DNA of 61,448 nucleotides from a virus (IMGVR_UViG_3300036796_000121:1-61448), one strand, 5' to 3'. Positions 17,126 through 47,993 are shown, counted from the stretch's first letter. Program-made: numbers and translations. The notes: generated by a model not told the origin, from the sequence alone.

Positions 17126-17312
17126 AAAAACCTTAAACCATTAATAGTATTACATACTATATAACTATTAATAAATAATACTATATATATAATATATAAT
17201 TATTAGTTTTATATTTATATTATATATATAAGGTATATTTTTTTAAGGGGGGGTTCTTTTTTATTTTGTTTTTCTTTTTTAAATATTGTAGTGTATTAGA
17301 CCCCCTCCTAAA
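17126..17312 (-). repeat. AT-rich element copy 1 (inverted homologue of 47806-47993); candidate origin
   Basis: 34-bp core 17210-17243 is the exact reverse complement of 47875-47908; flanking TTTAGGAGGGGGT and TAAGGTTTTT blocks are also shared. Confidence 0.9.
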
Positions 17313-17322
17313 ACTTTTTCTT

Positions 17323-17625
17323 TTATATATTTTTATTTTCGCTTAAATGACTGCAATCTCGAAACACGTACCACGCCGCAGTTGTCTCATACCCACGTAG
17401 CACCGACTTTCCAGCTAGGAGAAACCGTTCTTCTGTCACTTCCGTTATCAATCCTTCTCCAGCATATACATTACCTTTCTCTGTCTCGATATTCACACCA
17501 CGTAACTGGTTCGTGGCCACAAATTCACTTACCGCATAATCCACAACATATAGACTCCAGGTGAATTTGCCCATAACTACCCCTTCTTGTACCGTCACAT
17601 ATCCATCGTAAAACAGAACGTCCAA
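17323..17625 (-). CDS. Hypothetical protein
   Basis: 100-aa ORF, beta-rich. Confidence 0.55.
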   Translation of the reverse strand: MDVLFYDGYVTVQEGVVMGKFTWSLYVVDYAVSEFVATNQLRGVNIETEKGNVYAGEGLITEVTEERFLLAGKSVLRGYETTAAWYVFRDCSHLSENKNI

Positions 17626-17849
17626 ACCATCGATTTGTATGTTACTAGCAGTGATTATTTAATTTATCACACTCACAACACATTCTCATAGCATATTTAA
17701 TCATTTTCATCAAACATAAAATATAGTATAGAACCAAAAATAAAAAACAATTAAAGAAAAGAGAATGTCTTCAAAAGTTAATCTGTGGATACTTTTTTGA
17801 CAATCTCTTTTCTTATTTCAAAGCTTTCAAACACGAAATTTATAAGCGA

Positions 17850-19121
17850 TTATACGAATGTTATACCCGCACTTGCGAATCCTGTAATAGCAGTAGCTAT
17901 ATCGAAACCAGGTGTAGTTGATGAAACAACAAGTAATATCTTATCTTGTGGAGCGACCGCAATTGCTTGTGCGCTAATACCACTCGAAGTATCACCGATA
18001 GCAATAAGACCACTAAATGCTGGTGTTAATAATAACGGTGTACCTACTGGAGTGAAAGTATTACTTGCTGCTGGTGCGCTGTACAACTGCATTTGAATTT
18101 GTATGCTTCCTAGTGCTACAGCAACCGCTACAGTTACACTAAAGAATCCTGCTAACGAAGTAATTGTACCTGCGCGAGGTGCTACAAATGCAAAATCAAA
18201 AACTGGAGGTACTGGACCTATAGTAATTGAGCCACCAGGTGGGACAATTACAGGGAAGAATGAACTTCCAAATCCAAGAAGTGCTCCTGTGTTTGCCAAT
18301 CCACCTAAAACAGTTGTTAATGCTACTGGTCCACCTGATGCAAACGGAATAACGGCTCCGGCTCCTGTTGCTCCTGTTAGGCCTGTTGCTCCTGTTGCTC
18401 CTGTTGCTCCCGTTGCTCCTGTTACTCCTGTTGCTCCTGTTGGACCTGTTGCTCCTGTTGCTCCTGTTACTCCTGTTACTCCTGTTGCTCCTGTTGGACC
18501 TGTTGCTCCTGTTGCTCCTGTTGCTCCCGTTGGACCTGCTCCGGTTCCTGCTGGACCTGTTGGGCCTGTTGGACCTGTTGGACCTGTTGGACCTGCTCCG
18601 GTTCCTGCTGGACCTGTTGGGCCTGTTGGACCTGTTGGACCTGTCGCTGCTGGAGTAGCGTTGATTAATTGAATTAATAAACTAAAAAGAAGTTGTAAAG
18701 TTGCAGAATCGACATTTGAGTTGCAGGATATAGGGATAAGATTTAAAGCGAAGAAGAATTGTGCAAGGGCGCTATAAAATTGTTGCAATAATGTTGACAA
18801 TTGTCCTAAATTAGGTGTTGGAGATTGTAATAAAGCTATAATACTTTGAGTTAATTGTTTCAAAAAATTACCTTCTGGGGAAGGTATTAAAGAATTTAAG
18901 AAAATTAAAAATTGATTAAATAAATTGAGTAACGCTAATCTGTTTGCATCACTTGGATTTGCAAAAAATGCTGCAATTGCAGAAATTAGAGAGTTTAACA
19001 AAATAATTAATTGATCTAATTGTTGTCTAGTAATTGGAACTGTTTGAGGGTTATTACAGCATTCTGGATTAAAAGAAAATTCGTTACATTTATTATGGTC
19101 AAAACAATCATTATGTTTCAT
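17850..19121 (-). CDS. Collagen-like exosporium glycoprotein (ExsJ/ExsH-like N-terminus, BclB-type C-terminal domain)
   Basis: [11 protein letters not shown]-terminus, (GXT)n collagen repeats, GAVIPFASG...[20 protein letters not shown]-terminal domain. Confidence 0.85.
18358..18645 (-). repeat. 9-bp tandem repeats encoding G-X-T collagen triplets
   Basis: Runs of cctgttgct / cctgttgga units. Confidence 0.95.
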
Positions 19122-19692
19122 TTACTTCCTCCTTATTTAATAATTTTGAGAGAATATTCTTATACTAAGAAACACTCAAATGTAATGGTGTTGAATATTT
19201 TTAAATATTCATTTTCCTTAGAATAAAAATAGTTACTAATAATTAAACTATAAAAATTCAGTCTAATTATATTCACAACTCACATAATATAATTATACGC
19301 ATCTATATATCTATTGCTTAGATTATTTTCCTAATAAAAACGCATATTTTTAAAGTAATACATTATTACTCCTATCAAAGTGTTTATTTTATCAATAAAC
19401 GAAAAACATATTAATTTATAAGTTCAATAATTCCATTAATAATATCGAATGGATTTTTTTAACAATTACATAAGAAGCTTTTTCATCATTCGAAATATAG
19501 GGTCAGTAAATTTAGTAATATGTAATCTCTCTCCATCTAATCTTCTCCTTAGTTTTTTGAAAAAGTTTAATCCTCGCAACAGGTCTTCATAACCTAGTTG
19601 TTTACATCATGAATTGCTTTCTGATGATGCATTGTATTTTCCATTGAGAGCTAATTGTTTTGCTTTTGCTGACTAATTTTTATTTTTTTGTA

Positions 19693-19830
19693 ACAATTAT
19701 ACTCATCTTACATACAATATCTTGAATCCTTACTTGTCGAACCATTTATTTGTTCATGACTCACAAACATTGACAATATATGAATGGTGTAATGATTCAT
19801 AGAAGAGCACCTTATAATGGTGCTCTTTAT
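19693..19830 (+). ncRNA. Putative sRNA unit M (sigma-K/E-like promoter to terminator)
   Basis: AC-16-CATACAATA (19693-19719); terminator AAGAGCACC/GGTGCTCTT at 19803-19827; no convincing ORF. Confidence 0.45.
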
Positions 19831-20524
19831 TATTTCAGCACCTTTTATATGAATCTGCATACTTTTTTGACCAATTTTCAATGCACTTTCTTAAAGCCTT
19901 AAATAATATGATTGATTATTCAATCCGAGAAAAAGTACTTTTCGAAGACAAATTTTTTCAACACACTAAATATACTTTAAATTTTGATACATACTGTAGA
20001 TACCGTAAGTGTCTTATTTGTTGCTAGTGTAAACGGGACAATTACAAGTTTTCCGATTCCATCAGCGGCTAGTTTTTCTGCAGCAAGATTCTCATTTTCA
20101 AGTCCTATTCCATAATCCATCTTATCCTTTATTAACTTCTATGTTTATTAACAAAGCCAAAATTCTTTATTATAGCCACTACAACAAAAAACACTAAAAA
20201 ATTCGGCTTGCCCCTCTCCCTACTAAGTCGACTATGAGCACTTACGCTAGTTATGCAGGCGCTTTTCATTTAGTAATCCTTCTCTAATTTTTATGTTTCC
20301 TCTTTCTTGTGTTTATAAATCTTCACTTAACGCATTCGTTGAAATATCCTTTATACTTACTCTCCTTACAGAATCATGCTATATTCCTCATTACTAATTC
20401 CACATCGCACGGAACACTAACAATCATTAATTGTTTAGGTATATTCATATAACGTTATCCCCCCTTTAACTTGATAATAGAAATGACTAATAATAAGCTC
20501 CAGCCATAAATAACCACCCATCAA

Positions 20525-20848
20525 CTATCTACACTCCATTTCCGATCTCAATTTATCTCGTAACCACTTAAACTCCATGTCCTTTTTATCGATTTTTGCC
20601 TGAATCACTTTCGCCTGTTCTTTCGTATAACATTTACGGAAACCGTTGTATAATTTCGAAATTTCTTTCTGTAGCTGTCTCATTTCACGGTTCGAATAAT
20701 AACTTACAAATTCCGTTTTACAGCTTGGACAAATGAAGTAGTGCTTGTCCACACGGTTCGGTAATCGTGCAATGAGCATCTGGACGCGAAACACGTGCTC
20801 ACATACTTCACATTTCGCTTTTACGGGTTTCATTTCCTGATCCCTCAC
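20525..20848 (-). CDS. Zn-ribbon hypothetical protein
   Basis: CEVC...CPSC pairs plus a coiled coil. Confidence 0.75.
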   Translation of the reverse strand: MRDQEMKPVKAKCEVCEHVFRVQMLIARLPNRVDKHYFICPSCKTEFVSYYSNREMRQLQKEISKLYNGFRKCYTKEQAKVIQAKIDKKDMEFKWLRDKLRSEMECR

Positions 20849-20858
20849 TTTGAAAGGA

Positions 20859-21128
20859 TTATTTTGCTGAATTTCGCAAAAACTGAATTCCGAATCCTCT
20901 TTCTTTATTAAACTCCCTCATCCATTCATCTTTGTAAACCTGATGTAAACGACCATACAAGTTTATAGTCATTTTCTCCCTCACTATTGGTAGGCTATTA
21001 GGAACACTCGTAGGTAATGCCGCTCCTTCTATTGCTAACGTCATATATTTATCACAGAAATCAACATCGATTCCTTCATTATTTGGATTACATGTTTCCT
21101 TTCCGCACATCGGACAAATATCAACCAC
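20859..21128 (-). CDS. Hypothetical protein (Cys-rich N-terminus)
   Basis: GGAGG/GAGGG RBS; CPMC motif. Confidence 0.7.
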   Translation of the reverse strand: MVDICPMCGKETCNPNNEGIDVDFCDKYMTLAIEGAALPTSVPNSLPIVREKMTINLYGRLHQVYKDEWMREFNKERGFGIQFLRNSAK

Positions 21129-21144
21129 TTCCCTCTACCTCCCT

Positions 21145-21253
21145 GAATAAAAATCGACATTCCGTCAATACTATAGACACCTAGTTGAGACAAGACCTCC
21201 ATTAGGTGAGCAGTTAGCTTTTGCGGTTCGCGCCCTTGCTAGCTGCTCTTTTT
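21145..21253 (+). ncRNA. Putative sRNA unit A (sigma-G-like promoter to terminator)
   Basis: GAATA-17-AATACTA; CACCTA/TAGGTG stem enclosing ACCTCC; GAGCAGTTAGC...GCTAGCTGCTC-T5 terminator. Confidence 0.6.
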
Positions 21254-21513
21254 ATTTTCCCCTTTTCTACAAAATGAAATTTTTATACCAATCCTCATCA
21301 AGTGTTACAACAATTGTGTCACTCCTTGTCTTCTTCTTTTAGCCAATTCATTTTAATATAGCTATATCCTATACCTTCTAATAAATTTTTTTTTAGAAGA
21401 TTACAAACACATGTTTATTGCCCATTCCTCAAACAACCCATACCCGCATAAATTATTAAGTATCTAAAATCCATAATTGATAATTATTTTAATCAAAAGA
21501 GAGGAGTGTTAAT

Positions 21514-21801
21514 ATGGACATCAATAATCAACAATCTTATACCCCTATTGATTATTATCGAGAGCCTCAGCAATCCTTATATCCACAATCACATAACCTT
21601 CAACAACAAACTCTTACTATAATAACTCCAGCTGTTAGTCATGGGTTACGAGAAGCCCAGCACCTTGGCTATCGACATGCATTAACAGAAGCTGTTGCCA
21701 TAGGATACTTGATGGGAAGAGGTTACAATTATAATGCTGCTTGGAAAACCGTTGAGTCTTGGTGGAGACCGCCAGGGACTCCACTTCCTACGCCGTACTA
21801 A
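21514..21801 (+). CDS. Hypothetical moron protein (Gln/Pro/Tyr-rich N-terminus; sporulation-type)
   Basis: GAGGAG RBS; opposite strand to phage genes; upstream CATAAATTA sigma-K-like -10. Confidence 0.75.
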   Translation: MDINNQQSYTPIDYYREPQQSLYPQSHNLQQQTLTIITPAVSHGLREAQHLGYRHALTEAVAIGYLMGRGYNYNAAWKTVESWWRPPGTPLPTPY

Positions 21802-21891
21802 AGTTATTAATAAAGTCTTTAATTTGAAAAGTATTACTATATAGTGCACTTTTGAGTACGGAGAATTTCTACAAAATGAAGTTTTTATTAA

Positions 21892-22026
21892 GTTCACTTC
21901 CGTATAACTTTTCCAATCTTGTTTACACTACAACTGTAACTTAAGGTTACACATCATTACTTGTAGGGCCTAATTTTCTTTTGTACAACAAGTAGTTAGC
22001 TAATTAAGCTGGCTGCCTTGTTGTGC
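21892..22026 (+). ncRNA. Putative sRNA unit B1 (direct repeat of 24199-24333)
   Basis: GTATA-17-TACACTA promoter; TGTAAC/GTTACA hairpin; terminator at 21985-22024. Confidence 0.6.
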
Positions 22027-22051
22027 CTAATGAAGTCTTTATTGAATTTAT

Positions 22052-22175
22052 GAATAAATCTATAAATCCCAGACCAAACTACTCATGAGCTATTACAGAT
22101 ATAGCTCAATCTTCAAAAAATAAACGTAAAAAGTTCATTCACTTGGCAGACAGTTTTTACAATTGTCTGCCAAGT
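22052..22175 (+). ncRNA. Putative sRNA unit C
   Basis: GAATA-18-CAAACTA; TGAGCTAT/ATAGCTCA hairpin; 15-bp terminal stem at 22141-22175. Confidence 0.55.
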
Positions 22176-22187
22176 AATATTTTACGT

Positions 22188-22326
22188 ACATAATTTCAAA
22201 AACAAAATTCATACTATATATAGGTCTAAATTTCTAAATCCTCATTTCAGCCTTTGGCTTTAGACCTAATAAGTTGCTCTTTTCTCCTGAAGAGCTGAGC
22301 AGTTAGCTTTTGCTAGCTGCTCTTTT
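22188..22326 (+). ncRNA. Putative sRNA unit D
   Basis: ACATA-17-CATACTA; TAGGTCTAAA/TTTAGACCTA stem; GCTCTT/AAGAGC stem with loop TTCTCCTG; conserved terminator at 22297-22326. Confidence 0.65.
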
Positions 22327-22367
22327 ATTTAAAACAATGCCATCTGCCCACTTTTATTCTGCTCTTC

Positions 22368-22562
22368 TTATTCTTTTACTCTCTTCTCAAGCCTTTGTAT
22401 TTCTTGATTTAAAAGATGGTTCGTTTTATTGTTGTTATTCCTTGTTTTAAGACATCTCTCATGAACCACGTTGTCATATTGATCAAGTATCCATTCATCT
22501 TCAAATACCCAATCCTCACAAATAGGAAATTCAGCTATGATACAACCAGACGCCATATCCAT
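22368..22562 (-). CDS. Small hypothetical protein (possibly truncated phage gene)
   Basis: GGGGG RBS; degenerate Zn-binding pattern (PIC...HERC). Confidence 0.5.
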   Translation of the reverse strand: MDMASGCIIAEFPICEDWVFEDEWILDQYDNVVHERCLKTRNNNNKTNHLLNQEIQRLEKRVKE

Positions 22563-22570
22563 TCCCCCTT

Positions 22571-22675
22571 GAATAAATTCCTAAATTTTGTCCATACTAT
22601 AAATACACTTAATGATTGAACTTCCTTCTTAACTTTTTTGGGAGAGCAGTTAGCTTTTGCTAACTGCTCTTTTTT
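22571..22675 (+). ncRNA. Putative sRNA unit E
   Basis: GAATA-17-CATACTA (sigma-G consensus); CTTCCTTC segment; AGAGCAGTTAGC-TTTT-GCTAACTGCTCT terminator with T-tail. Confidence 0.65.
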
Positions 22676-22684
22676 AGTTTGTCC

Positions 22685-22812
22685 GAATAAAATTCTAAAT
22701 TCTGTCCAATACTATACATAGGCTGATACAGCTTGAATTCACAGTGACCTCTTTAATTTTCTTTTCCCTTTCTCTGAGGGCTTAGCAGTTAGCTTTTGCT
22801 AGCTGCTTTTTT
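22685..22812 (+). ncRNA. Putative sRNA unit F
   Basis: GAATA-18-AATACTA; pyrimidine-rich body; AGCAGTTAGC-TTTT-GCTAGCTGCT terminator with T-tail. Confidence 0.6.
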
Positions 22813-22814
22813 GT

Positions 22815-22911
22815 TCTTATTTTTCTACTTATTACATACATTTTTAACGTGTTCATTTTGTTCACTGAGTTACCTCCTATCTGTAGAGCAACCTAAATGG
22901 GTGCTCTTTTT
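22815..22911 (+). ncRNA. Putative sRNA unit G
   Basis: CATACATT sigma-E-like -10 at 22835; TACCTCCT at 22871-22878; AGAGCA/TGCTCT terminator with T-tail. Confidence 0.45.
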
Positions 22912-23011
22912 CAATTTCTCCTTCACTACAAAATGAAATTTTTGTTACATATATCTGCAGAAAATGACACCAATAATAGAAAATAAATTAGAATTAATAA
23001 CTTAATTAATT

Positions 23012-24091
23012 CTACTCTTTACTTTGTAATAAGTTATTAAAATATTGATGATTATACACCACTGCTGGATGATCTGGTATATATTTTGCTGCCAATTCAT
23101 TATAATAATATGCTTTTTCATAGTCCCCTAAATGGCTATGGCACAAGGATAATTGGAAATATGGAATCCAAGTATAGCTTGCGGGATTGCAAAGTAACGC
23201 CTCAGTAGGACAATTGATTCTGATAGCCGCTAAATACCAACGAATTGCTTCCTTATATTTTTGTTGCGCCATCATGGCATGCCCTATACCTACACACATT
23301 TCTCCTCTTGGAGTTCCATATTGAAATGTTCTCATGTATGCCTCTATTGCTTTATCCCATTTTTGAAGTTCTGCATAACAATATCCTAAATTCCCATATA
23401 CATAAATATACTCTTCCCCCCACTCCCCTTTGCTCTCTAATACATTTTTATACTGTTGAATTGCTTCATCATATTTCCCCCGAAACATACATTCATTCGC
23501 ATAATTAAACCTATCTGTATTAGTAGCTTCTTTTGCTTCAACTATGGATCGAAGAATGTTAAAATTCTGATCAATCCGCGGCCTTTCTTTACAATGAGTA
23601 ATAACTATATCACTGTGCGCTGTATTTCCTTGGACCTGTATTACTTCATGCACTTTATTAATCCATTTAAAATTTCTTGAGCGTTTAACAAGTCTATGAC
23701 GAGTTGCAATATACATCGGTTTATCATCTAAACTCACCCCCAAATGATAAAACATTGAAATTGCATCAATATCAGGATCTATTTCTTGTTTTAATTTTAA
23801 AAATTTCTGCTGATCTTTTTCAAATAGCACATCATCAGCATCTAGCCATAAAATATAATCTTTTTTTGCTTTAGAAAACGAAAAATTTCTAGCGGCTGCA
23901 AAATTATCATTCCACTTATAATCATAAATGTTATCTGTATACTTCCGAACAATATCTTTTGTTTTATCTGTAGACCCAGTATCTACAATCACTATTTCAT
24001 CAACTATATGTTTTATGGAATCTAAACACCTCGCAATAACCTGTTCCTCATCTTTTACAATCATACATAAACTAATTGTTATTTGAGTCAA
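23012..24091 (-). CDS. GT2-family glycosyltransferase with TPR repeats
   Basis: ISLCMIVKDEE, IVDTGSTD, FAAARN, WLDADD and VHE motifs followed by TPRs; TTG start at 24091 after GGGGGGAG. Confidence 0.92.
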   Translation of the reverse strand: MTQITISLCMIVKDEEQVIARCLDSIKHIVDEIVIVDTGSTDKTKDIVRKYTDNIYDYKWNDNFAAARNFSFSKAKKDYILWLDADDVLFEKDQQKFLKLKQEIDPDIDAISMFYHLGVSLDDKPMYIATRHRLVKRSRNFKWINKVHEVIQVQGNTAHSDIVITHCKERPRIDQNFNILRSIVEAKEATNTDRFNYANECMFRGKYDEAIQQYKNVLESKGEWGEEYIYVYGNLGYCYAELQKWDKAIEAYMRTFQYGTPRGEMCVGIGHAMMAQQKYKEAIRWYLAAIRINCPTEALLCNPASYTWIPYFQLSLCHSHLGDYEKAYYYNELAAKYIPDHPAVVYNHQYFNNLLQSKE

Positions 24092-24198
24092 GATAACTCC
24101 CCCCTTTGATTTACTATATTCAGGATCCAAAGATAACTTATCTACACAAATATTTTTTGTATGTTTAGACATTAAATATAAAATGAAGGTTTTATTAC

Positions 24199-24333
24199 GT
24201 TCACTTCCGTATAACTTTTCCAATCTTGTTTACACTACAACTGTAACTTAAAGTTACACATCATTACTTGTAGGGCCTAATTTCCTTTTGTACAACGAGC
24301 AGTTAGTTTTATTAACTAGCTGCTTTGTTGTGC
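24199..24333 (+). ncRNA. Putative sRNA unit B2 (direct repeat of 21892-22026)
   Basis: 135-bp near-identical copy with stem-preserving substitutions. Confidence 0.6.
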
Positions 24334-24360
24334 TTAATAAGGTTTTTATTTATTTTTCTT

Positions 24361-28385: not shown

Positions 28386-28649
28386 TTATTTTCTTAAATG
28401 CTCTAAAAATAGGTCATTGAAATTCTCGTTTTCTAGTTCTTCCAATCGTTTCTGTACACGCTCTAAACGAACTGAACCTAGTCCTAACACTTCTTTTACC
28501 GCTTGCAATGCTAATGTCCGTCCATCTTTATACGATAAAAGGGATACTTGCTGTACTTCACCTCGATGAAAGCTTTGACGTTCCCTTGTCTTCTTTCCTT
28601 CACGTTCACTCGCTCGGCGCTGTTGACGATTCAAGTTCTCGTCCATCAT
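28386..28649 (-). CDS. Hypothetical protein
   Basis: LNRQQRR N-terminal motif common in phage early proteins. Confidence 0.7.
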   Translation of the reverse strand: MMDENLNRQQRRASEREGKKTRERQSFHRGEVQQVSLLSYKDGRTLALQAVKEVLGLGSVRLERVQKRLEELENENFNDLFLEHLRK

Positions 28650-31334: not shown

Positions 31335-34300
31335 TTAGTAGTACTCATCTTGTATATGATCAAAGAGCCCCTTTTTCATGCAATAGGAAATGTATGCATT
31401 AAAGCGTGGTGTTTTTCGATAACCACCGCTTGTTAAAAGGATCATCCTCATTTTCGCTAATTGATTTACAATTGCTTTTGCTTCTTCTTTATCGATAGAC
31501 AACATAGCCTCAACATCACCAAGTCGTAAGTACTTCTGTTGAGCAAATAGCTTGATAAATTCATAGAACTTCATTTCACCTGTCAACGTATCGATTTTCT
31601 TAAGGTCTGTCGTAAACTTCTCATATCTTTCTTCTGTCATTTCTTCCTCTTTTATTGCCAAACGAGCATAGTAATTCAGGCCACAACCTGGAGCATTGTA
31701 TAACGCTTTTAAGTACTCCCCTATAAACTCAACGTGTCCTGGCCAAACTTGAATCCGTTCTCCTGATTCATCTACTGAATGTGTAAGAGCTGCAAGCGCA
31801 ACTGCTAATCGTGCTACTTTATTCCGTTGATCAGAAGGGGAAACAAGCGGTATATCATTCGCGTTTCCGTATACTTTCGCAAGGTCTGTCGCAACATCCA
31901 GTACTTTATCAATCGTACCGTCCGTAAACAATACATCTTCCGGCTTTCGTGACCAAGCGTATAAGATATTATTTTTTAATGTATCTTTCTGAATGATTGA
32001 TGGATACGTAGCAAGTGTTTGATTATATAATTCAGGATCCACGTCACTCGCTCTCATAAAGACTGCAAAGTCAAAGCGTCGGATATCCTCATTATTGAAA
32101 ATATCTTTTAAGCTTTCCGCACCTTGAGAATAGTCAGCAAGTCGTTTCCCTTTCGGTACGTTCCCTGACATAATGGCGCGCACACGACAAGGCGTTTCAG
32201 CTGTTACAGCTCGTTTGACTTCTAACTTACCGTCAGAACGGGCAAGTGTCATTTCACCATAATCATCTTTCGTAATCCCTGTATCCTCATCGATCCAAAT
32301 CATTTCTTTGTCTGCAAGTGGCCACGCGCCCCAAACGATGTACCACGCACCCTGTGCACCTGACTGTTCCATCTTGTACGTTAGACCTGTACGAGAAGTA
32401 CTTTCTGCATTTACTCGTGTTCCAAGCCCCGCATATTTCATTACTTTTTCAATGAGCGCTGACTTACCGGTACCTGTATCACCAACTATTTTTAATTCCA
32501 GCCACCCACGTAATGGATTTAAATCCCAAGGCACTTTAAAACGTAGAACACTATGAAGAGTCAATAACACTGCAAGTAGCGTCTCATCACGCTCTACAAT
32601 GTGTGTTACGTTGTACGTTAAGTCGTTACAAATAGCTCCCAACTTTTGCTCAATTGATTCAGCTGTATAATCCGCTGGTTGGAATGTCGCTAAATCTTCT
32701 TTTACTTGTTCAGTTATCTCAAAGCTTTCAACAACGTCCTGAAGTGGTGTAGCACTCTTTACGAGTAACGTTGACTCCTGATTCTTTGGATGCGGGTATA
32801 CATAACCGGTTAACTCGTAGTACTTGTTTTCACTTACGTTTAGTCCATTTACGGCGTACACTTTTCGTAGTACATAATTCCCTTTATGCTGCTCTTGCTT
32901 TTCGTCATCTTCCTCAGCCATCGGGATTACAAGTAACTCCTCCACGTTCATATTTTCTAAAATATCCGTATTGTATTTCGGACAATTCGGAATGCCTGAT
33001 ATTTCTCGTAAAATGCCTTTTATGTTATCGTCACCTACACCCGTCATTTGAATAACTTCCCTGTCACTCACCCCCAGGTCTTTATACCCTGTATGAGTAT
33101 GGATGTCGTATAACGGGCAATGTACCTTTTTACAACTTTCTCTACCCCAGCAATGGTACTCAATGTTTTTAGGAATGATGTAAGGCGTATGCTTTTTACC
33201 TGCAACCATGATGCGAGTTTTTACAAGCTTTCCAGTAAGATCTGCATTGCCTGTCTCCGCTAAATGAAGTAGCTTTGCATTTTCCTCTTCTTCGGCATTT
33301 TTCTTAATACAGTGACACATATCACCAGCACACGCTACACGTTCATAATCTTTGCTTCCTGGTTTCTTTTCGCCATGTAGTGAACGAATAAACGCGCAAC
33401 CGAATTTGTATGTATTATCACCGCTGTATACCGCATCGATAACACTTCTCGTATTTGCAACACGTTGTTGCTTACCATACTCGTTATCCTCAGATGTAAA
33501 TTTAAGCACCCATTCTTCCAGTGTTTTCAGCGTTTCTTCCCTTGTGTACCCTGCATCCTTAAAGTAACAAGCAAGCTGTACTGTTGCTTGGTTTCGGTCA
33601 CCGTCTTTTTTCCAGCCGCCGTTTAAAATATCAACTACACATGCCGGTGGTTTGCCTTTCTTAAACTGGAATTCCTCTTTCACATATTTACGAGCACTCG
33701 TTGCTGCAGCTTGTTCGTATTCTTCCGTTTTATTTATTAGTAAATACCCCGTACGAGGTCTGTATTTCATTGCCTTTTTACGTTCTTCTGCCGTATAAGG
33801 TAGATCTTCAGCGTGTCTCGGTGCCCTTGCTAACTCCTTTATTTCTTCCAGCGTTAATTTGTTTAATTCATTTACACTGATTTCTGTTTTAAATAGGTTT
33901 GTTTTTTGATGCATACTGTTCGGTAAACGAATCATCCGCTTTTCTGTATACACCACAAGGTCTAGTGACGTGAGTCCTAGTCGATGGACTAAGTACCCAG
34001 CCATATGCTTGAAGATTTTATGAAGGTCGTTTCTCGGTTCAATACCGAGCGCATCGGAGCTTATTAAGATGTGGAATCCTTTTGATCCAGAAAAGTATAC
34101 CCACATATCCGATTCACGAATGTCCATTTCTACCGTAAAAAATTCCACCAGCTTTATTGCATCCTTTTGGCTGACTGATGGGTCTTCCGCATGGTCAAGG
34201 TCAAAATATAGGGGAGCAATAAATGCCTCCCCCTTTACTTTTGTGTCGTTCGCAAATCGTTGAACTGTAGCAAAGCAATTGAAATTGAATGCCTCTCCCG

Positions 34301-34421
34301 TTTGGAATTGCTTCACTTCAGAAGATGGGATTCGTTTCCACGGAATGCTTCTACCGTTCTGATTGCTGTACCATGCGTCTACATATTGATACTCACTTGT
34401 TTTGTCTTTCTTTTTTGCCAT
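31335..34421 (-). CDS. AEP primase-polymerase / MCM helicase fusion (BcMCM-like)
   Basis: FDLDH and YFSGSKGFH AEP motifs, PriCT-like GDRNQ, Cys cluster, IVGDTGTGKS Walker A, WIDED Walker B, IRRFD Arg finger. Confidence 0.9.
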   Translation of the reverse strand: MAKKKDKTSEYQYVDAWYSNQNGRSIPWKRIPSSEVKQFQTGEAFNFNCFATVQRFANDTKVKGEAFIAPLYFDLDHAEDPSVSQKDAIKLVEFFTVEMDIRESDMWVYFSGSKGFHILISSDALGIEPRNDLHKIFKHMAGYLVHRLGLTSLDLVVYTEKRMIRLPNSMHQKTNLFKTEISVNELNKLTLEEIKELARAPRHAEDLPYTAEERKKAMKYRPRTGYLLINKTEEYEQAAATSARKYVKEEFQFKKGKPPACVVDILNGGWKKDGDRNQATVQLACYFKDAGYTREETLKTLEEWVLKFTSEDNEYGKQQRVANTRSVIDAVYSGDNTYKFGCAFIRSLHGEKKPGSKDYERVACAGDMCHCIKKNAEEEENAKLLHLAETGNADLTGKLVKTRIMVAGKKHTPYIIPKNIEYHCWGRESCKKVHCPLYDIHTHTGYKDLGVSDREVIQMTGVGDDNIKGILREISGIPNCPKYNTDILENMNVEELLVIPMAEEDDEKQEQHKGNYVLRKVYAVNGLNVSENKYYELTGYVYPHPKNQESTLLVKSATPLQDVVESFEITEQVKEDLATFQPADYTAESIEQKLGAICNDLTYNVTHIVERDETLLAVLLTLHSVLRFKVPWDLNPLRGWLELKIVGDTGTGKSALIEKVMKYAGLGTRVNAESTSRTGLTYKMEQSGAQGAWYIVWGAWPLADKEMIWIDEDTGITKDDYGEMTLARSDGKLEVKRAVTAETPCRVRAIMSGNVPKGKRLADYSQGAESLKDIFNNEDIRRFDFAVFMRASDVDPELYNQTLATYPSIIQKDTLKNNILYAWSRKPEDVLFTDGTIDKVLDVATDLAKVYGNANDIPLVSPSDQRNKVARLAVALAALTHSVDESGERIQVWPGHVEFIGEYLKALYNAPGCGLNYYARLAIKEEEMTEERYEKFTTDLKKIDTLTGEMKFYEFIKLFAQQKYLRLGDVEAMLSIDKEEAKAIVNQLAKMRMILLTSGGYRKTPRFNAYISYCMKKGLFDHIQDEYY

Positions 34422-43069: not shown

Positions 43070-43378
43070 TCAGCTCCCTACAGTTGTATCTTTGTAATGA
43101 GGATATTCTTCAAAAAATTGTTCTTCAGGCGGGAATCCCAGCTCAAATGACAGTTTAACTTCTTTCTTACTGGCGTTTTGCAAGTAAGCAGGTAAATAAA
43201 AATGTTCCATAGGGAACCCAAGTACAATTGCGATTTGCAAGGCTAATTTTCCTCCTGGATCACGTCTACCAGTCTCTAAGTCTGCAATATGACCTGGAGT
43301 CACACCAACCTTATCTGCTAGAGCCGCCTGCGACATACGTTTTTTTCCACGTAAATCTGCCAACCAAGTCCTTTTCAT
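43070..43378 (-). CDS. Cro-like XRE HTH regulator
   Basis: SQAALADKVGVTPGHIADLETG; divergent from the cI-like gene. Confidence 0.85.
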   Translation of the reverse strand: MKRTWLADLRGKKRMSQAALADKVGVTPGHIADLETGRRDPGGKLALQIAIVLGFPMEHFYLPAYLQNASKKEVKLSFELGFPPEEQFFEEYPHYKDTTVGS

Positions 43379-43676
43379 ATGTCCACCTCCAGACAACCTT
43401 TAATGATTTTTATTATACTGGCGTTTTGCAAGTAAGTAAAGTGGTATTTCAAATTTTTTTTATGTTTTTAATGCCCTTGATTAGAAAATGAACGTATTTT
43501 TTAAAATTTTCACTTGCAATATGCGTACATTTTCCATTGTGCAATTACGTCATAAAGTGTTATCTTATATATAGATAACAGCAAAAAAATAAAAAGCATT
43601 TTATATTTTTTATAAATTTTATTAAAAACAAAACCATTAAAAATATAATAAAGAATTTTACCGGGAGGTAATATAC

Positions 43677-44015
43677 ATGAACATTGGGGCACAATTAAAA
43701 TTTTTACGAAATAGACGTGGTTGGACAATGCAAGAAGTCGCAGATCGTATTGGTAAAAATGATTCTACGTATAGCGGATATGAGACAAATAAAAGAAAAC
43801 CAAACGCCGAAGTTCTTGTACAACTAGCCGATACCTTCGATACTACTACAGACTTTATTCTAGGGAGAACAGAAAATCCAAACGGCCTTAACTTTAATGT
43901 AAAAGACTTTTTAGATCAGGGTAGACTACACTCTGACGGGGTAGAAATCACAGATGAGCAAGCTGAACTTGTTAACGTTTTATTAAGACAAGTTCTACAA
44001 AGAAAACAGCAATAA
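43677..44015 (+). CDS. CI-like XRE repressor (no peptidase domain)
   Basis: TMQEVADRIG..STYSGYETNKRKP HTH; TTDFILGR. Confidence 0.9.
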   Translation: MNIGAQLKFLRNRRGWTMQEVADRIGKNDSTYSGYETNKRKPNAEVLVQLADTFDTTTDFILGRTENPNGLNFNVKDFLDQGRLHSDGVEITDEQAELVNVLLRQVLQRKQQ

Positions 44016-44339: not shown

Positions 44340-44354
44340 AACTATTTATTTATA

Positions 44355-44510: not shown

Positions 44511-44511
44511 T

Positions 44512-45675
44512 TTACAACACTCCTTCTGTTATTAGAACTCGCTTTGCAAGTTGAGCGTACATTAAATTTCCCATTTTTTCAAATAATTCCAAAGATTCTC
44601 TTGCCATAATTGTATCATTTTCTATTCTTGAAAGATAGTACATCTGGAAAGCGGATAAACCTTGCTCTTTCAATCTATCAAAAATCTCATAGCCCTTTTT
44701 CTTATCACCATATAAACACTCATAATAAGCTAAATCTCCATCACTGATAAAATTAAAATCTATGTTTTCTAAGTTAAAACCAAACTCGATATACAAAAAT
44801 GCAAGAGTTGTCTTAAAGGATGTATATTTTTGAGTCCCTTTAGGCGAGCTTATTCCTTCAAGGCATTTTATAGCTTTTAATATAAATTTTTCAGCCATTA
44901 ACGGATCCTCAAAGATGTAACTTTCACCTAAACAACAGTATGCTGTAGCCTTGACAACTGTGAAATTCATTTCGGAATCTATAATTTCCAAACAACTAGA
45001 TCTACAGTTATCAATTTCGTTAGCATGTAACTGAGTATATGCAATTCGCTCTTTATGTTGCATACATAAACAGTCTTTAATATAACCGTTGTCCATATTA
45101 GCGACATGTGCTTCCGCAGCTTTTGCATACGACGTCATCGCACTATACCTTTGCTCATCATATTCTGCAGCCATAAATAACGTATTCAATAAAACTTGGC
45201 AATCGGAATCTGCAGAAACACGTTTCTCGTAAATCTCATCCAGTAATGTTTGTCCTCTTTTTCTGTTCATATTACGATGATTGTACAAGGTATATATACT
45301 TAAATATTTATGTACATCATTTTGGAGCTTTTTCAGATTTTCATCTTCTGTTACTACGCTGAGCTTTTCAATAAGAGAATCTATCAGCTCATACTCCCCA
45401 GCCACTTGACAGAAACTTAAAGCCTTTCTTACATTCATGCTAGTCGAGCACTTTAATATAAATTCTTTTATTTTGTGGGTTTGTTCCAACGGATTTTTAT
45501 ATACATAATGTATTAACTTCTCGTAAACATCAAACTTCATTTCTCCAATTTTTAATTCTAGGCCGTTAGAGATAGTTGTCCTACTTATACCAATCTCTTT
45601 TGCTATTTTCCGTACACTCATGTTCTTTGACTGTATCACATTATTCAGCTCATTCATCAAAGCTTTCATGTTCAT
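44512..45675 (-). CDS. aimR: AimR-family lysis-lysogeny peptide receptor (HTH + TPR)
   Basis: 387 aa, N-terminal HTH, TPR-like helices (CCLGESYIFE), followed by a secreted peptide gene, between integrase and repressor. Confidence 0.88.
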   Translation of the reverse strand: MNMKALMNELNNVIQSKNMSVRKIAKEIGISRTTISNGLELKIGEMKFDVYEKLIHYVYKNPLEQTHKIKEFILKCSTSMNVRKALSFCQVAGEYELIDSLIEKLSVVTEDENLKKLQNDVHKYLSIYTLYNHRNMNRKRGQTLLDEIYEKRVSADSDCQVLLNTLFMAAEYDEQRYSAMTSYAKAAEAHVANMDNGYIKDCLCMQHKERIAYTQLHANEIDNCRSSCLEIIDSEMNFTVVKATAYCCLGESYIFEDPLMAEKFILKAIKCLEGISSPKGTQKYTSFKTTLAFLYIEFGFNLENIDFNFISDGDLAYYECLYGDKKKGYEIFDRLKEQGLSAFQMYYLSRIENDTIMARESLELFEKMGNLMYAQLAKRVLITEGVL

Positions 45676-45864: not shown

Positions 45865-45902
45865 CTCTTTTATTTTATTATTTTCATCTTATCATAAAAT
45901 TT

Positions 45903-45916
45903 AGAACATTCGTTTC
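45903..45916. promoter_or_regulatory. LexA (SOS) box upstream of aimR
   Basis: AGAACATTCGTTTC, close to the Firmicutes consensus CGAACRNRYGTTYC. Confidence 0.55.
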
Positions 45917-45991
45917 GCTCTTTCTCACATCATGTTGAGAAAGTTTTTTCTAAAAATAACAGAATCCCCACAAGAATATTTTACCACTAAC

Positions 45992-46005
45992 CGAACAATT
46001 GTTCT
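45992..46005. promoter_or_regulatory. LexA (SOS) box overlapping the putative aimR promoter
   Basis: CGAACAATTGTTCT; adjacent minus-strand TGGTAAAAT extended -10. Confidence 0.7.
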
Positions 46006-46204
46006 ACCTGTTATTTAAATGCATACAAAATAGCACATATTGTATTTAAACCAAATTCCCTGGTATTTATAGTTTTAAAATAATGCCTTATTTATAATAA
46101 AGGCACGAATAACAATACAGAAACCGAGAGGACAAGTTTAACTCTCGGTTTTTTATACCCTAATTATACACTGCACTCGCGGTATGTCAATAAGGCATAC
46201 GAAT

Positions 46205-47668
46205 TTATTCTAAGAATCTATAGTAGATATCTATTGCCCCATCTTGAGCAACTTCTATCCTCTTTATTAGTTTTTGAAATACGCCATGTAAATCTTTTGA
46301 CTCTTCTAATAAAGCAAACGCATCTCTAACTTCTTGTTTCTCCTTCATTTGAATTTCGATATTGTTCGCTTTCCGTATTTCCAGTTCTTTTAATTCGATT
46401 TCTTTTTCAATTTTTTTATTACGAACAGTAAAAGTATCTTTATCAATTCTTTCGCCTTCTAAATATAAGTCTAATAAACGCTCCTTCTTAAACTTCAAAT
46501 CTTTAATATCTCTGTTAAGCTTTCTTAATTTAACTTGTAGTTGATTTTCATCCGAAAAAAACTCTTTTTCTAAAACACTTTCTTTTTCTTTCAATTTATC
46601 TAGTACTAATACCCTTAAATCCTTGTAATGTATTGGAACATGTTTTACACATTCTCGACGTGCTGTAGCTCTACTCCAATCACACATCATATATGAGTAT
46701 TCTTTTATTGTCCCATTCTTATTTACACGTACATTATTTTTCTTACTCATCGCCGTACCGCAATGTGCACAGAACGTTATACCCCTTAATTCATTAGTTG
46801 TTGATATACGACGCTTTTTTTGGAACTTATTAGGATCCTTATCGTTAACTTTATCCCATAATTCGTGACTAATTATAGCAGGGTGATGATTCTCAAAAAT
46901 CACCCACTTCTCTTTAGGATTTATAACTTTCTTCTTCTTCCCGTTAACTTTCACTGTTGTATATTTTTGCATTGTATAAGTGCCTTTGTAAGTCGGGTTT
47001 TTTATCATCTTGCATAATGTAGAGTATGTCCAAGGCTCCCCTTTCCTTGTACGATCCCCCTTATCATTTATAGTATTCGCAATCTTAATATAACCAAATC
47101 CTTGCGCATATAATTCAAACATTTCTCTAACTAGAGCAGCTTCCTCTTCATTAATTGCATATTTATCATCTATAATTTCATAACCATATGGAACAAATCC
47201 CCCAGTATAACCACCTCTACGCACTTTCGCTGCCAAAGCTGCGGTTGTAGACACAGATAATGTTTTAGGCAACTGAGCTGCAAACATGGCATACATTTCA
47301 AATTTCATATCATTCTTACCTTCGTAATGACTGTCATAGCCTTCTTCCAGCGTTATTAAGCGTACACCGTGCCCTAAAAGTATCTCCTTAATCTCCAGTG
47401 CGTCCTTTAAATCCCGTGCCAATCGATGTATGGATTTAAATATAACTGTGTCGAGTTCTTTTTTTCTAGCTTTATTTAAGATCAGTTGCATTGCATGCCT
47501 TTCTAACCAGGCCGTCCCAGATATACCATCGTCAAAGTAAACAGCATTCTCATCCCATTCAAAACCGTTATTCTCTAGCCAATATCTACAAATGTCAATC
47601 TGATTTTCTACAGAAGAAACCTGTTCATCTTTATCACTTGATACACGTACATAAACAGCATATGCCAA
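46205..47668 (-). CDS. int: Large serine recombinase (integrase)
   Basis: YVRVSS, DDGISG, SIHRLAR, PYGY, recombinase domain, CAHCG Zn ribbon, coiled coil. Confidence 0.95.
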   Translation of the reverse strand: MAYAVYVRVSSDKDEQVSSVENQIDICRYWLENNGFEWDENAVYFDDGISGTAWLERHAMQLILNKARKKELDTVIFKSIHRLARDLKDALEIKEILLGHGVRLITLEEGYDSHYEGKNDMKFEMYAMFAAQLPKTLSVSTTAALAAKVRRGGYTGGFVPYGYEIIDDKYAINEEEAALVREMFELYAQGFGYIKIANTINDKGDRTRKGEPWTYSTLCKMIKNPTYKGTYTMQKYTTVKVNGKKKKVINPKEKWVIFENHHPAIISHELWDKVNDKDPNKFQKKRRISTTNELRGITFCAHCGTAMSKKNNVRVNKNGTIKEYSYMMCDWSRATARRECVKHVPIHYKDLRVLVLDKLKEKESVLEKEFFSDENQLQVKLRKLNRDIKDLKFKKERLLDLYLEGERIDKDTFTVRNKKIEKEIELKELEIRKANNIEIQMKEKQEVRDAFALLEESKDLHGVFQKLIKRIEVAQDGAIDIYYRFLE

Positions 47669-47805
47669 AATTACCGCTCCTTTCATCGATCTCCAAATAT
47701 ATTATGTCTGAATTATATAACTCCAAGAGTAAACTGGCAATCTATTACCAACGCAAAAAGACGACTTACTACAGTCGTCAAAATAAAATATATAAATCTC
47801 AAAAA

Positions 47806-47993
47806 TTTAGGAGGGGGTAAACAACACACAACATCATTTAATAAAAACAAAAAAGAAAAAAGACCCCCCTCTATAAAAAATATACCTTATATATATAATA
47901 TAAATATATAACTTATAAATATATATATTATATATAGAGTATATTTTTAATAGTAATATATAAGTATTATTACTATAGGGTTCTAAGGTTTTT
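47806..47993 (+). repeat. AT-rich element copy 2 (inverted homologue of 17126-17312); candidate origin
   Basis: 34-bp identity with copy 1; G-run/C-run inverted pair followed by a (TA)-rich tract. Confidence 0.9.

What the first reader, a model, noticed from the sequence alone, without database searches (positions are those of the whole stretch)
17126..47993. Two inverted homologous AT-rich elements sit almost exactly antipodal on the circular genome
Seen: 17126-17312 and 47806-47993 are reverse-complement homologues. They share a perfect 34-bp core (AAAAAATATACCTTATATATATAATATAAATATA; 17210-17243 vs 47875-47908), a TTTAGGAGGGGGT block, a G-run/C-run inverted pair around an A-rich spacer, and a long (TA)-rich tract. 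On the 61,341-bp circle the core centres are 30,665 bp apart one way and 30,676 bp the other. Established: G-strings next to an AT-rich unwinding element are a feature of MCM-using archaeal origins, and this phage encodes a primase-MCM. Inference: these are paired, oppositely oriented origins, or an origin/terminus pair, for an unusual two-origin or strand-specific replication scheme. The exact spacing could be coincidence.
Basis: partly seen in the sequence, partly recalled or inferred. Interest (0 to 1): 0.8.

Follow-up and report, generated by a model that had tools for sequence, protein, structure and literature searches.

The report
Paired boundary elements in MCM phages
Two copies of a conserved, symmetric non-coding DNA element sit at the two joints between the early and late gene blocks of this Bacillus phage and its relatives; they most likely control the switch to late gene expression, while a role as replication origins is still open.

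Summary
Two homologous elements of about 215 nt lie at 17126-17340 and 47780-47993, inverted, and share a perfect 34-nt core. No third copy exists. The pair is kept in phBC6A51, in PHBA67-T and in every sufficiently long IMG/VR relative. It is also kept in distant relatives whose late-regulator protein is only 38-51% identical.

The exact half-circle spacing is a coincidence. Where record lengths can be trusted, the elements split the genome between 47/53 and 58/42. The spacing arises because the elements mark the two junctions between an early and a late gene block of similar size, all on one strand.

Each element has a two-fold symmetric core: a TATATAA-like box, about 15 nt, a G-run, a fixed span, a C-run, about 15-17 nt, then a TTATAT box. 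A very AT-rich tract lies on one side only. Each half has promoter-like geometry and points outward.

Element A always precedes a small basic sigma-region-4-like protein of the late-activator (Ltr) kind. In two relatives A is flipped, so the pair is direct, and that gene then sits about 50-60 nt behind the other half.

Best reading: transcription boundary and switch elements (about 0.5). Replication origins like SPP1 oriL/oriR remain possible (about 0.25). Nothing tested here showed replication.

The parts
17126..17340 (-). Element A, whole homologous block. Its 'forward' reading is on the minus strand, the strand of the genes.
   Evidence: 94-97% identical in 21 IMG/VR records
17247..17305 (.). 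A: G-run ... C-run inverted repeat (H1), outer span 59 nt, with an A-rich spacer whose sequence is not conserved
   Evidence: outer span 55-61 nt in 43 of 45 distinct copies
17323..17330 (+). A: box-1-side TTATAT box, starting 17 nt after the C-run when read outward (towards the early genes). The stop codon of the upstream ORF lies in this box.
   Evidence: ORF list; translation
17226..17231 (-). A: TA-side TTATAT box, starting 15 nt after the C-run when read outward (towards p128). It lies in the perfect core and overlaps a sigma-A-like match, TTAAAA-16-TATAAT.
17140..17245 (.). A: AT-rich tract holding a long imperfect TA palindrome and a second short palindrome. It contains the most AT-rich 80-nt window of the genome (17166-17245, 95% A+T).
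16707..17087 (-). p128/p126: small basic sigma-region-4-like protein, a candidate late transcriptional regulator (Ltr type). It is the first gene after element A.
   Evidence: position in relatives
47780..47993 (+). Element B, whole homologous block. Its 'forward' reading is on the plus strand, opposite to the genes.
47813..47869 (.). B: G-run ... C-run inverted repeat (H1), outer span 57 nt
47790..47795 (-). B: box-1-side TTATAT box, pointing towards the integrase side
47887..47892 (+). B: TA-side TTATAT box, pointing back into the end of the late block
47872..47980 (.). B: AT-rich tract with a long TA palindrome (I3) and a second short palindrome. It contains the second most AT-rich 80-nt window of the genome (47872-47951, 93.8%).
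   Evidence: (I3)
47760..47779 (-). Classical intrinsic terminator hairpin followed by a T-run, directly after element B in the direction of the genes
47712..47740 (-). Sigma-A-like promoter TTGCCA-17-TATAAT of the integrase gene, outside the element
46205..47686 (-). Large serine recombinase (integrase). It flanks B in phBC6A51-like phages only.
48019..48639 (-). Replic_Relax family protein, the last gene before B in phBC6A51-like phages only
31335..34421 (-). Primase-MCM fusion, in the middle of the early arc and far from both elements

Best explanation
A and B are two copies of a clade-wide 'module boundary' control element. The genome is a circle read on one strand. It has exactly two junctions between the early block (lysogeny, replication, accessory genes) and the late block (late regulator, terminase, virion, lysis), and one element sits at each.

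The functional core is a two-fold symmetric unit. Two outward-facing promoter-like halves stand back to back: a C-run in the place of a -35 element, 14-18 nt, then a TTATAT(A/T)T box in the place of a -10 element. They are held at a fixed distance by the G-run/C-run inverted repeat.

At A, one half drives, or gates read-through into, the gene for a small sigma-region-4-like late activator. That activator then turns on the packaging-to-lysis operon. At B, the same unit read in the direction of the genes (AT tract, hairpin, T-rich box side) closes the late transcription unit and separates it from the next block.

The poor -35 surrogate implies that a phage factor, not host sigma-A alone, operates the unit. 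The half-genome spacing is a by-product of two blocks of similar size.

Shown: conservation, positions, dyad anatomy, spacing statistics, the sigma-4-like fold of the neighbouring gene, and the orientation flip.

Inferred: that the halves are promoters, that B terminates, and which protein binds.
For: (1) Position. In 37 of 37 loci of phBC6A51-like phages the context is upstream ORF -> A -> p128 -> (hin) -> terS, and FtsK-like -> Replic_Relax -> B -> integrase. In vB_BboS-125, A lies directly before the p128 homologue/terS/terL/portal. B lies directly after the holin and before the first early genes, with no FtsK, Replic_Relax or integrase nearby. The elements therefore follow the early/late junctions, not any particular flanking gene.

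(2) p128 is Ltr-like. It is 126 aa with pI 9.95. Of 56 family members, 8 match Sigma70_r4_2, 7 match Sigma70_r4 and 5 match DUF1492. The family profile hits sigma factor region 4 in PDB sequences (SigF 1l0o_C, E 7.9e-6). The AF2 model has pLDDT 83.9, and its best Foldseek rows are all sigma region 4. Ltr proteins are described as small basic proteins encoded upstream of terS, with Sigma70_r4 and DUF1492 families (PMC3753634, passages read).

(3) Promoter-like geometry. TTATAT starts 14-18 nt after the C-run in 80 of 88 half-units, against 0.9% of 5000 random window positions. In the window the half-unit occurs only in A and B (5 matches, 0.26 expected). In 5 relatives all 20 listed matches lie in the two elements, and the reversed control pattern gives 0.

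(4) Orientation flip. In G026 and G027 element A is turned round. The p128 homologue then starts 52-58 nt after the C-run on the other half, behind the TTATAT box and a ribosome-binding site. Either half can therefore face the regulator gene.

(5) B keeps one orientation relative to the late genes in all lineages examined. In the window it is followed by a classical terminator. In G027 a tight G6-loop-C6 hairpin with a T-rich tail lies in it.

(6) Primary sequence is conserved more strongly than the neighbouring proteins. The 34-nt core is identical in A and B, and boxes and runs are kept where p128 is 38-51% identical. This points to protein or RNA polymerase recognition.
Against: No transcript data: no RNA run was listed and no reads could be laid.

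A C-run is unlike any known -35 element. The TTATAT box could be simply part of an AT-rich unwinding region.

A dyad with fixed arm spacing next to a 55-110-nt tract of nearly pure A+T is also what a bidirectional origin looks like.

Two of the four half-units per genome would fire antisense into genes, which needs an explanation.

In the Ltr systems studied so far the regulated repeat region lies downstream of ltr (upstream of terS), not upstream of ltr.

The half-unit statistic is inflated by near-identical phBC6A51-like copies. Part of the set was also collected with patterns that required one box or the runs.

Foldseek gave no match with E <= 0.001 for p128.
Confidence: 0.5

Rival explanations
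1. Replication elements. One or both copies are origins for the primase-MCM replisome. The AT tract is the unwinding element and the G-run/C-run dyad is the binding site of an unknown initiator. Alternatively they form an origin plus a second origin-like site that stalls the fork and triggers the switch from circle to concatemer replication, as proposed for SPP1 oriL/oriR.
For: A and B are the two most AT-rich 80-nt windows of the genome (95% and 93.8%). In GC-richer relatives the tract stands out as about 55-110 nt of nearly pure A+T.

The core has dyad symmetry with a fixed span of 55-61 nt in 43 of 45 copies.

The pair co-occurs with a well-conserved primase-MCM, 66-73% identical in the three distant relatives tested.

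No origin is defined for this phage in the BcMCM papers, in the passages read.

Precedent: SPP1 has two similarly organised origin regions with an AT-rich unwinding element, and fork stalling at oriR is proposed to start concatemer synthesis with a Holliday-junction resolvase and an exonuclease (PMC6316719 passages; PMC3485210 abstract). This phage encodes a resolvase, an exonuclease and SbcCD-like proteins.
Against: There is no GC-skew switch or arc difference at A or B.

No Cdc6/Orc1 domain is encoded.

Both copies lie about 14-17 kb from the replication genes and exactly at transcription-unit borders.

A is tied to the late-regulator gene in either orientation.

The element has inverted half-sites, not the direct repeats of SPP1 origins.

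BcMCM is reported to prefer single-stranded or bubble DNA, so a separate initiator would be needed, and none is identified.
Confidence: 0.25
2. An architectural or other DNA-level site: a binding site for a phage or host DNA-bending, silencing, partition or packaging protein that isolates the late block as a topological or silenced domain.
For: The core is dyad-symmetric with about 52 bp (about five helical turns) between arm centres. The flanks are extremely AT-rich. There are two sites per genome, and they bracket the late block in every genome examined.
Against: No candidate protein is identified. In none of the records examined does position 1 or an end fall at A or B, but this does not test packaging, because record starts may be arbitrary. 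The flip of A in G026/G027 removes the symmetric bracketing there.
Confidence: 0.12
3. A cis-acting RNA, transcribed from both copies: a processive antitermination or attenuator RNA, or a small RNA. This would resemble lambda nutL/nutR or HK022 putL/putR, which also occur as oppositely oriented homologous copies (recalled, not checked in any call).
For: Both copies fold into the same three hairpins, with z-scores -2.2 and -3.4 against shuffles. The second short palindrome differs in sequence between A, B and the lineages but stays a palindrome in most.
Against: Rfam gives no match. Complementarity stops right after G-run+T, at 27%, 13%, 18% and 20% for the next four positions, which is chance level. 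In one copy (G024 B) the short palindrome is replaced by direct repeats. B would be transcribed antisense to genes. The fixed length of a sequence-free 43-nt loop is hard to explain for an RNA.
Confidence: 0.07
4. Recombination sites: a 30-kb invertible half-genome flipped by the neighbouring serine recombinases or by homologous recombination. The yeast 2-micron circle, recalled here and not checked, has such an arrangement.
For: The repeats are inverted. A Hin-like invertase gene lies 800 bp from A and a large serine recombinase lies next to B.
Against: 0 of 37 loci show a recombinant junction. A-type and B-type copies stay distinct (about 80% identical) in every genome, so there is no homogenisation. 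Among loci that show the stretch after p128, hin is present in 12 and absent in 6, and it is absent with the integrase in vB_BboS-125. The pair is direct in G026/G027.
Confidence: 0.03

Closest known systems
Ltr (RinA / ArpU / LtrA-C) late-operon control regions of Firmicute siphophages (PMC3753634, PMC3152322)
   Same: [quoted passage not shown] A repeat-bearing regulatory region lies at the early/late border.
   Different: Here the conserved repeat element lies upstream of the regulator gene, not between it and terS. It is a large dyad with G/C runs. A second copy closes the late block. Binding of p128 to it is not shown.
SPP1 oriL / oriR (PMC6316719; PMC3485210)
   Same: A Bacillus siphophage read on one strand carries two distant, similarly organised AT-rich non-coding elements. 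One is proposed to act as a fork barrier that starts concatemer replication, helped by a phage resolvase and exonuclease.
   Different: The SPP1 origins carry direct repeats bound by gp38 and are about 13 kb apart on a 44-kb circle. oriL lies inside the initiator gene, and the helicase is DnaB-type. Here the half-sites are inverted, the copies sit at module borders, the helicase is a primase-MCM, and no initiator is known.
Polyomavirus non-coding control region (recalled; only a title and abstract on its bidirectional promoter appeared)
   Same: A compact dyad-symmetric region between early and late genes combines a bidirectional promoter with an AT-rich tract and palindromes. It serves a virus-encoded initiator helicase.
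   Different: It is an eukaryotic virus with divergent early and late genes and one copy per genome. Here all genes lie on one strand, there are two copies, and origin activity is not shown.
Archaeal ORB / mini-ORB origins with G-strings
   Same: G-runs in inverted orientation lie near an AT-rich stretch in a genome that uses an MCM helicase.
   Different: ORB elements are bound by Orc1/Cdc6, and no Cdc6_C domain is found here. The stretch between the runs is not AT-rich in GC-richer relatives. No ORB dyad consensus was tested.
Phage P4 ori / crr (recalled, not checked)
   Same: Two separated cis sites share repeats and serve a primase-helicase fusion protein.
   Different: The P4 alpha protein binds octamer iterons. 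There is no evidence that the primase-MCM binds duplex DNA specifically.

Membership tests
Replication origin of the archaeal Orc1/Cdc6-MCM type | An Orc1/Cdc6 initiator is encoded, usually next to the origin | tested here: not met
   PF09079 Cdc6_C gives 0 matches in the 61-kb record, while the control finds it in 3 archaea. The genes flanking A and B are a sigma-4-like protein, an unknown ORF, Replic_Relax and an integrase.
Replication origin of the archaeal Orc1/Cdc6-MCM type | Inverted initiator sites flank an AT-rich unwinding element | tested here: inconclusive
   The G-run/C-run arms are inverted. The spacer between them is A-rich only in AT-rich phages and is mixed or GC-rich in G024, G025 and L090. 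The pure A+T tract lies beside the dyad, not within it.
Replication origin (any type) | Replication starts there: marker-frequency peak, nascent strands, or autonomous replication | not testable with these tools
GC skew is uninformative.
SPP1-type origin pair | Direct repeats bound by an origin-binding protein next to an AT-rich unwinding element, present at two sites | tested here: inconclusive
   Two sites and an AT-rich tract are present. The repeats are inverted, not direct. No gp38-like protein was searched for.
Ltr-controlled late switch | A small basic protein with a sigma-region-4-like C-terminal domain is encoded upstream of terS | tested here: met
   126 aa, pI 9.95. Pfam on family members, PDB profile, model and fold search. 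Gene order is shown.
Ltr-controlled late switch | The Ltr protein binds a repeat region upstream of terS and activates the late operon | not testable with these tools
   No DNA-protein tool is available. G/C runs upstream of terS in the window are not more frequent than composition predicts (6 C6 runs against 7 expected).
Sigma-70-type promoter | Two hexamers 16-18 nt apart, with a -10 like TATAAT | tested here: inconclusive
   The spacing (C-run to TTATAT, 14-18 nt) and a -10-like box are conserved in 80 of 88 half-units. The -35 position holds a C-run, unlike TTGACA. Only the TA-side half of A passes the consensus scan.
Hin/Gin-type invertible segment | Both orientations of the segment occur in nature, and the recombinase is kept with the sites | tested here: not met
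   0 of 37 loci have recombinant junctions. hin is present in 12 and absent in 6 informative loci. No recombinase lies near either site in vB_BboS-125.
Known RNA family | A match to a curated covariance model | tested here: not met
   Rfam 15 at gathering thresholds gives 0 matches in the whole window.
Dispersed repeat / MITE of the Bacillus cereus group | Many copies at varied places in host genomes | tested here: not met
   There are two copies per phage genome at fixed places. One pattern scan of 185,579 species genomes found a single hit, on a 15.5-kb Bacillus hominis contig.

The most novel reading that the evidence does not exclude
Each element is a combined control region of the polyomavirus kind: a bidirectional, factor-dependent promoter fused to a loading site for the primase-MCM. 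The phage carries two of them, one at each early/late junction. Replication would start at one, run into the other (or into converging transcription), and there switch to concatemer synthesis. Meanwhile the four outward promoters would give sense and antisense transcripts that time the early-to-late switch. This would be the first defined origin architecture for a bacterial-virus MCM replisome, and a case of replication and late transcription being coupled through one repeated element.
Probability: 0.15. Interest if true: 0.85.

Novelty: new variant of a known kind. Interest (0 to 1): 0.55.

Why it matters
phBC6A51 is the source of the only biochemically studied bacterial-virus MCM (BcMCM). 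In the passages I read, neither its origin nor its late-gene switch has been defined.

This work delimits a small, sharply conserved cis element present exactly twice per genome across a whole clade of MCM phages. It gives base-level predictions: four putative transcription starts, two G/C arms at a fixed span, and one AT tract. It also offers a natural 'flip' experiment in the G026/G027 lineage.

These make both open questions directly testable: where this replisome loads, and how these phages commit to late transcription. The work also shows that the eye-catching exact antipodal spacing is not a designed feature.

Tried and rejected
Rfam scan of the whole window: no family.

GC and AT skew, whole sequence and third codon positions, early against late arc: no switch at A or B. 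The arcs are alike (-0.199 / -0.170; GC3 skew 0.226 / 0.282). The only inflections are where plus-strand genes lie.

Extended hairpin: complementarity beyond G-run+T is at chance level, so I dropped a long conserved stem.

A short reading frame after the AGGAGG: no start codon is kept, and AGGAGG itself is not conserved in vB_BboS-125.

attP: in phBC6A51 the prophage end lies beyond the integrase, not in B, so B is not the attachment site.

Link to FtsK/Replic_Relax: that module is in 105 phage records, but element B is found by BLAST in only 4 records, representing 3 phages. vB_BboS-125 has B without the module.

G/C runs as p128 sites upstream of terS: not enriched.

More copies of the half-unit as stand-alone late promoters: none in the window or in 5 relatives.

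BSP7, a B. subtilis phage with a distant MCM-like primase: it has an unrelated 35-nt inverted repeat between its late-operon start and the region upstream of its primase. This is not homologous and is inconclusive.

Sequencing runs: no RNA holder was listed. The 24 rows are contigs of DNA runs, and the best one may be the source sample.

Papers: full-text searches for 'phBC6A51' (22 papers), 'BcMCM' (27) and 'vB_BboS-125' (5). In the passages I read of PMC2715239, PMC3273815, PMC5135824 and PMC6375668 these elements are not mentioned. I did not read the other listed papers. McGeoch & Bell 2005 is not in the library, and supplements were not consulted.

Full report
OBSERVATION

The two regions are reverse-complement homologues. 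The repeat finder gives 17158-17278 / 47840-47960 (121 nt, 83%) and 17291-17338 / 47780-47827. BLAST inside the record aligns 17126-17339 with 47780-47993 at 81% identity, E 4e-47.

A 28-nt part of the perfect core occurs exactly twice, with 0.00 expected. G5-N30-60-C5 occurs only at these two sites, with 0.04 expected.

The primase-MCM is real.

GENOME LAYOUT

Nearly all long ORFs lie on the minus strand.

Reading along that strand from A (17.2 kb) downwards, the order is:
- a 126-aa protein (p128);
- a Hin-like serine recombinase;
- small and large terminase and portal;
- virion genes, across the circle joint, with tail and lysis genes;
- a short plus-strand cluster;
- an FtsK-like gene and a Replic_Relax gene;
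- element B (47.9 kb).

From B downwards the order is:
- a terminator, then a sigma-A-like promoter and the large serine integrase;
- an AimR-like regulator and two divergent HTH_3 genes;
- exonuclease, SbcCD-like proteins, a resolvase, a helicase, the primase-MCM and a DNA polymerase;
- a dUTPase, a 258-aa multi-HTH protein and accessory genes;
- back to A.

A and B are thus the two joints between a late and an early arc. The arcs are 30.5 and 30.4 kb long.

CLOSE RELATIVES

phBC6A51 and PHBA67-T each hold both copies on opposite strands. phBC6A51 (61,395 bp) has them at 28461-28711 and 59577-59794. PHBA67-T (63,270 bp, circular) has them at 18964-19214 and 48717-48928. The splits are 50.7/49.3 and 47/53.

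A pattern scan of IMG/VR gave 33 stretches in 23 records. BLAST of element A against those 23 records matched all of them.
- Eleven records hold an A-type copy (94-97% identical) and a B-type copy (79-82% identical). The two are on opposite strands in all eleven and lie 28.2 to 35.3 kb apart.
- In the other twelve records, the expected place of the partner falls beyond the end of the record. I worked this out from the coordinates and strands.

Where IMG/VR calls the record complete, the share of the record between the copies ranges from 49.5% to 57.8% (G010, G011, G015, G005, G019, G016, G008, G009). Provirus limits are IMG/VR's, not mine.

The context is invariant in 37 of 37 loci, and no recombinant junction is seen. 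A-type and B-type copies stay distinct in every genome.

DISTANT RELATIVES

BLAST of element B found vB_BboS-125, a 58,528-bp phage of Bacillus bogoriensis with all genes on one strand and no integrase. Its copies lie at 40117-40305 and 9555-9785, inverted.
- A lies directly before the p128 homologue (51% identical), followed by the terminase and portal genes.
- B lies directly after the holin and an annotated terminator, and before the first early genes. No FtsK, Replic_Relax or integrase is nearby.

Through p128 homologues and a looser pattern I found further genomes with two copies:

| Record | Length (bp) | Distance between copies (kb) |
|---|---|---|
| G024 | 56,247 | 30.3 |
| G025 | 55,815 | 28.0 |
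| G026 | 53,337 | 27.8 |
| G027 | 57,004 | 30.8 |
| G028 | 53,370 | 29.2 |
| G029 (61% fragment) | 35,115 | 27.0 |

p128 in these records is 38-42% identical to the window's. The primase-MCM is 66-73% identical in the three tested.

The pair is therefore an old feature of this clade. Roughly half-genome spacing is general, and exact halving is not.

ANATOMY

Comparing lineages shows which parts are conserved. In order, they are:
- a TATATAA-like box;
- 14-16 nt;
- a G-run ending in T (often TA);
- a spacer of free sequence, A-rich only in the AT-rich phages;
- a C-run preceded by A;
- 14-18 nt;
- a TTATAT(A/T)T box.

The outer span from G-run to C-run is 55-61 nt in 43 of 45 distinct copies. 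The arms therefore sit about five helical turns apart.

Complementarity stops right after G-run+T, at 27%, 13%, 18% and 20% for the next four positions. The conserved item is thus an 6-9-bp GC-rich inverted repeat at a fixed distance, not a long stem.

The unit is two-fold symmetric. Read outward from either C-run, TTATAT begins 14-18 nt away in 80 of 88 half-units, against 0.9% of random positions. Two caveats apply: the set is redundant, and it was partly collected with patterns that fixed one box or the runs.

The half-unit occurs nowhere else in the window or in five relatives.

On one side only follows a tract of nearly pure A+T with a long TA palindrome and one or more short palindromes or repeats built on AGTAAT-like words. 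In the window, the two tracts are the two most AT-rich 80-nt windows of the genome.

As RNA, both copies fold into three hairpins, with z-scores -2.2 and -3.4. Rfam has no match.

THE GENE BEHIND A

p128 has no Pfam hit of its own. The evidence on its kind is as follows:
- Of its 56 aligned relatives, 8 match Sigma70_r4_2, 7 match Sigma70_r4 and 5 match DUF1492.
- The family profile finds sigma region 4 of SigF, ECF sigmas and FliA among PDB sequences (best E 7.9e-6).
- NCBIfam gives weak sigma hits over residues 43-115.
- The ESM Atlas lists ArpU-like and sigma-like clusters, which I treat as a lead only.
- The AF2 model (pLDDT 83.9) has its best Foldseek rows all on sigma region 4. These cover about 55-60 columns at 1.3-1.8 A, but no E-value is below 0.08.
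- It has 126 aa and pI 9.95.

ORIENTATION

B has the same orientation relative to the late genes in every lineage examined. The AT tract faces the late block and the box-1 side faces the next block.

A is turned the other way in most genomes, which gives the inverted pair. In G026 and G027, however, both copies lie on the same strand. There A is flipped.

In that arrangement the p128 homologue starts 52 nt (G026) or 58 nt (G027) after the C-run on the box-1 side. It lies behind the TTATAT box and a ribosome-binding site.

Three things follow:
- The opposite orientation is not required.
- Either half of the dyad can face the regulator gene.
- The distance in G026/G027 is what one expects between a promoter and its gene.

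In G027 a tight G6-loop-C6 hairpin with a T-rich tail also lies inside each copy, in the direction of the genes. In the window a classical terminator follows B.

WEIGHING

I read the element as a transcription boundary and switch module. It would consist of two back-to-back, factor-dependent promoter-like halves plus an AT-rich structured flank.

A controls the late activator gene and B closes the late unit. The half-genome spacing follows from two gene blocks of similar size.

This reading rests on position, geometry and the flip. No transcript data were available.

The origin reading remains a serious rival. In its favour:
- The AT tracts look like unwinding elements.
- The dyad with fixed arm spacing would suit a symmetric loader.
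- SPP1 offers a precedent for two origin-like regions, one of which is proposed to stall the fork and start concatemer replication.

Against it:
- There is no skew signal.
- There is no Orc1/Cdc6.
- Both copies lie 14-17 kb from the replication genes.
- A is tied to the regulator gene in either orientation.

The two functions could also be combined in one element, as in polyomavirus control regions (recalled). That is my most novel admissible reading.

Inversion of the 30-kb arc is close to excluded.

NOVELTY

Three full-text searches were run. In the passages of the four papers I read, neither the elements nor an origin for these phages is mentioned. I did not see supplements or McGeoch & Bell 2005.

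The kind of feature is known: repeated cis-control or origin elements at module borders. This dyad architecture, its strict two-copy use and its spread through the MCM-phage clade appear undescribed.

Noticed in passing
window 44512-45675 (-): The 387-aa regulator matches Pfam AimR (E 2.5e-29). This suggests an arbitrium-type peptide communication system beside the lysogeny switch. The signal-peptide gene was not looked for.
   Followed up: no
window 15740-16300 (-): A Hin-like small serine recombinase (Resolvase + HTH) lies between p128 and the small terminase. It is present in 12 and absent in 6 informative relatives' loci, including phBC6A51. Its target sites are unknown.
   Followed up: partly
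window 48019-49765 (-): An FtsK/SpoIIIE-like and Replic_Relax gene pair ends the late arc. Replic_Relax homologues occur in 105 phage records of Bacillus, Geobacillus and Staphylococcus, usually beside an FtsK-like gene. Its role in phages is unclear.
   Followed up: partly
window 17850-19121 (-), repeats 18325-18661: A collagen-like (G-X-Y) protein gene with 20-28 tandem 9-nt units, scored as tail-fibre-like by PHROGs. It lies in the accessory region just upstream of A.
   Followed up: no
window 19647-22815 and 21870-24356: An AT-rich accessory region (GC about 0.30) holds five copies of a terminator-like 39-nt hairpin family (D4) and a 180-nt direct repeat at 88% identity (D3). It also holds a TPR-glycosyltransferase gene at 23012-24223.
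   Followed up: no
window 43583-43662: The third most AT-rich 80-nt window (90%) lies between the two divergent HTH_3 genes (43070-43396 minus strand, 43677-44015 plus strand). This is probably the lysis/lysogeny switch region.
   Followed up: no
window 16681-16710 (-): A near-consensus sigma-A promoter match, TTGACA-18-TACAAT, sits at the very end of the p128 gene and points into the 400-nt gap before the invertase gene.
   Followed up: no
L091, L092, L050 (after the p128 homologue); L100, L101, L127 (box-1 side of B): In the GC-richer relatives, repeats of AGTAAAG / CTTTACT recur upstream of the small terminase gene and around the sigma-A-like promoter of the first gene after B. They are a candidate operator or Ltr site, and they are not seen in the window's lineage.
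   Followed up: partly
L123 (Bacillus phage BSP7) 105-139 and 35219-35253; 35231-35415: A B. subtilis phage with a distant MCM-like primase and one-strand layout has an unrelated inverted repeat. It links the start of its late block with the region upstream of its LuxR-like and primase genes.
   Followed up: partly
window 26349-27125 (-): A 258-aa protein has several helix-turn-helix modules, including a Sigma70_r4_2 match (E 1.4e-12). It is another candidate binder of the dyad or a middle-gene regulator.
   Followed up: no
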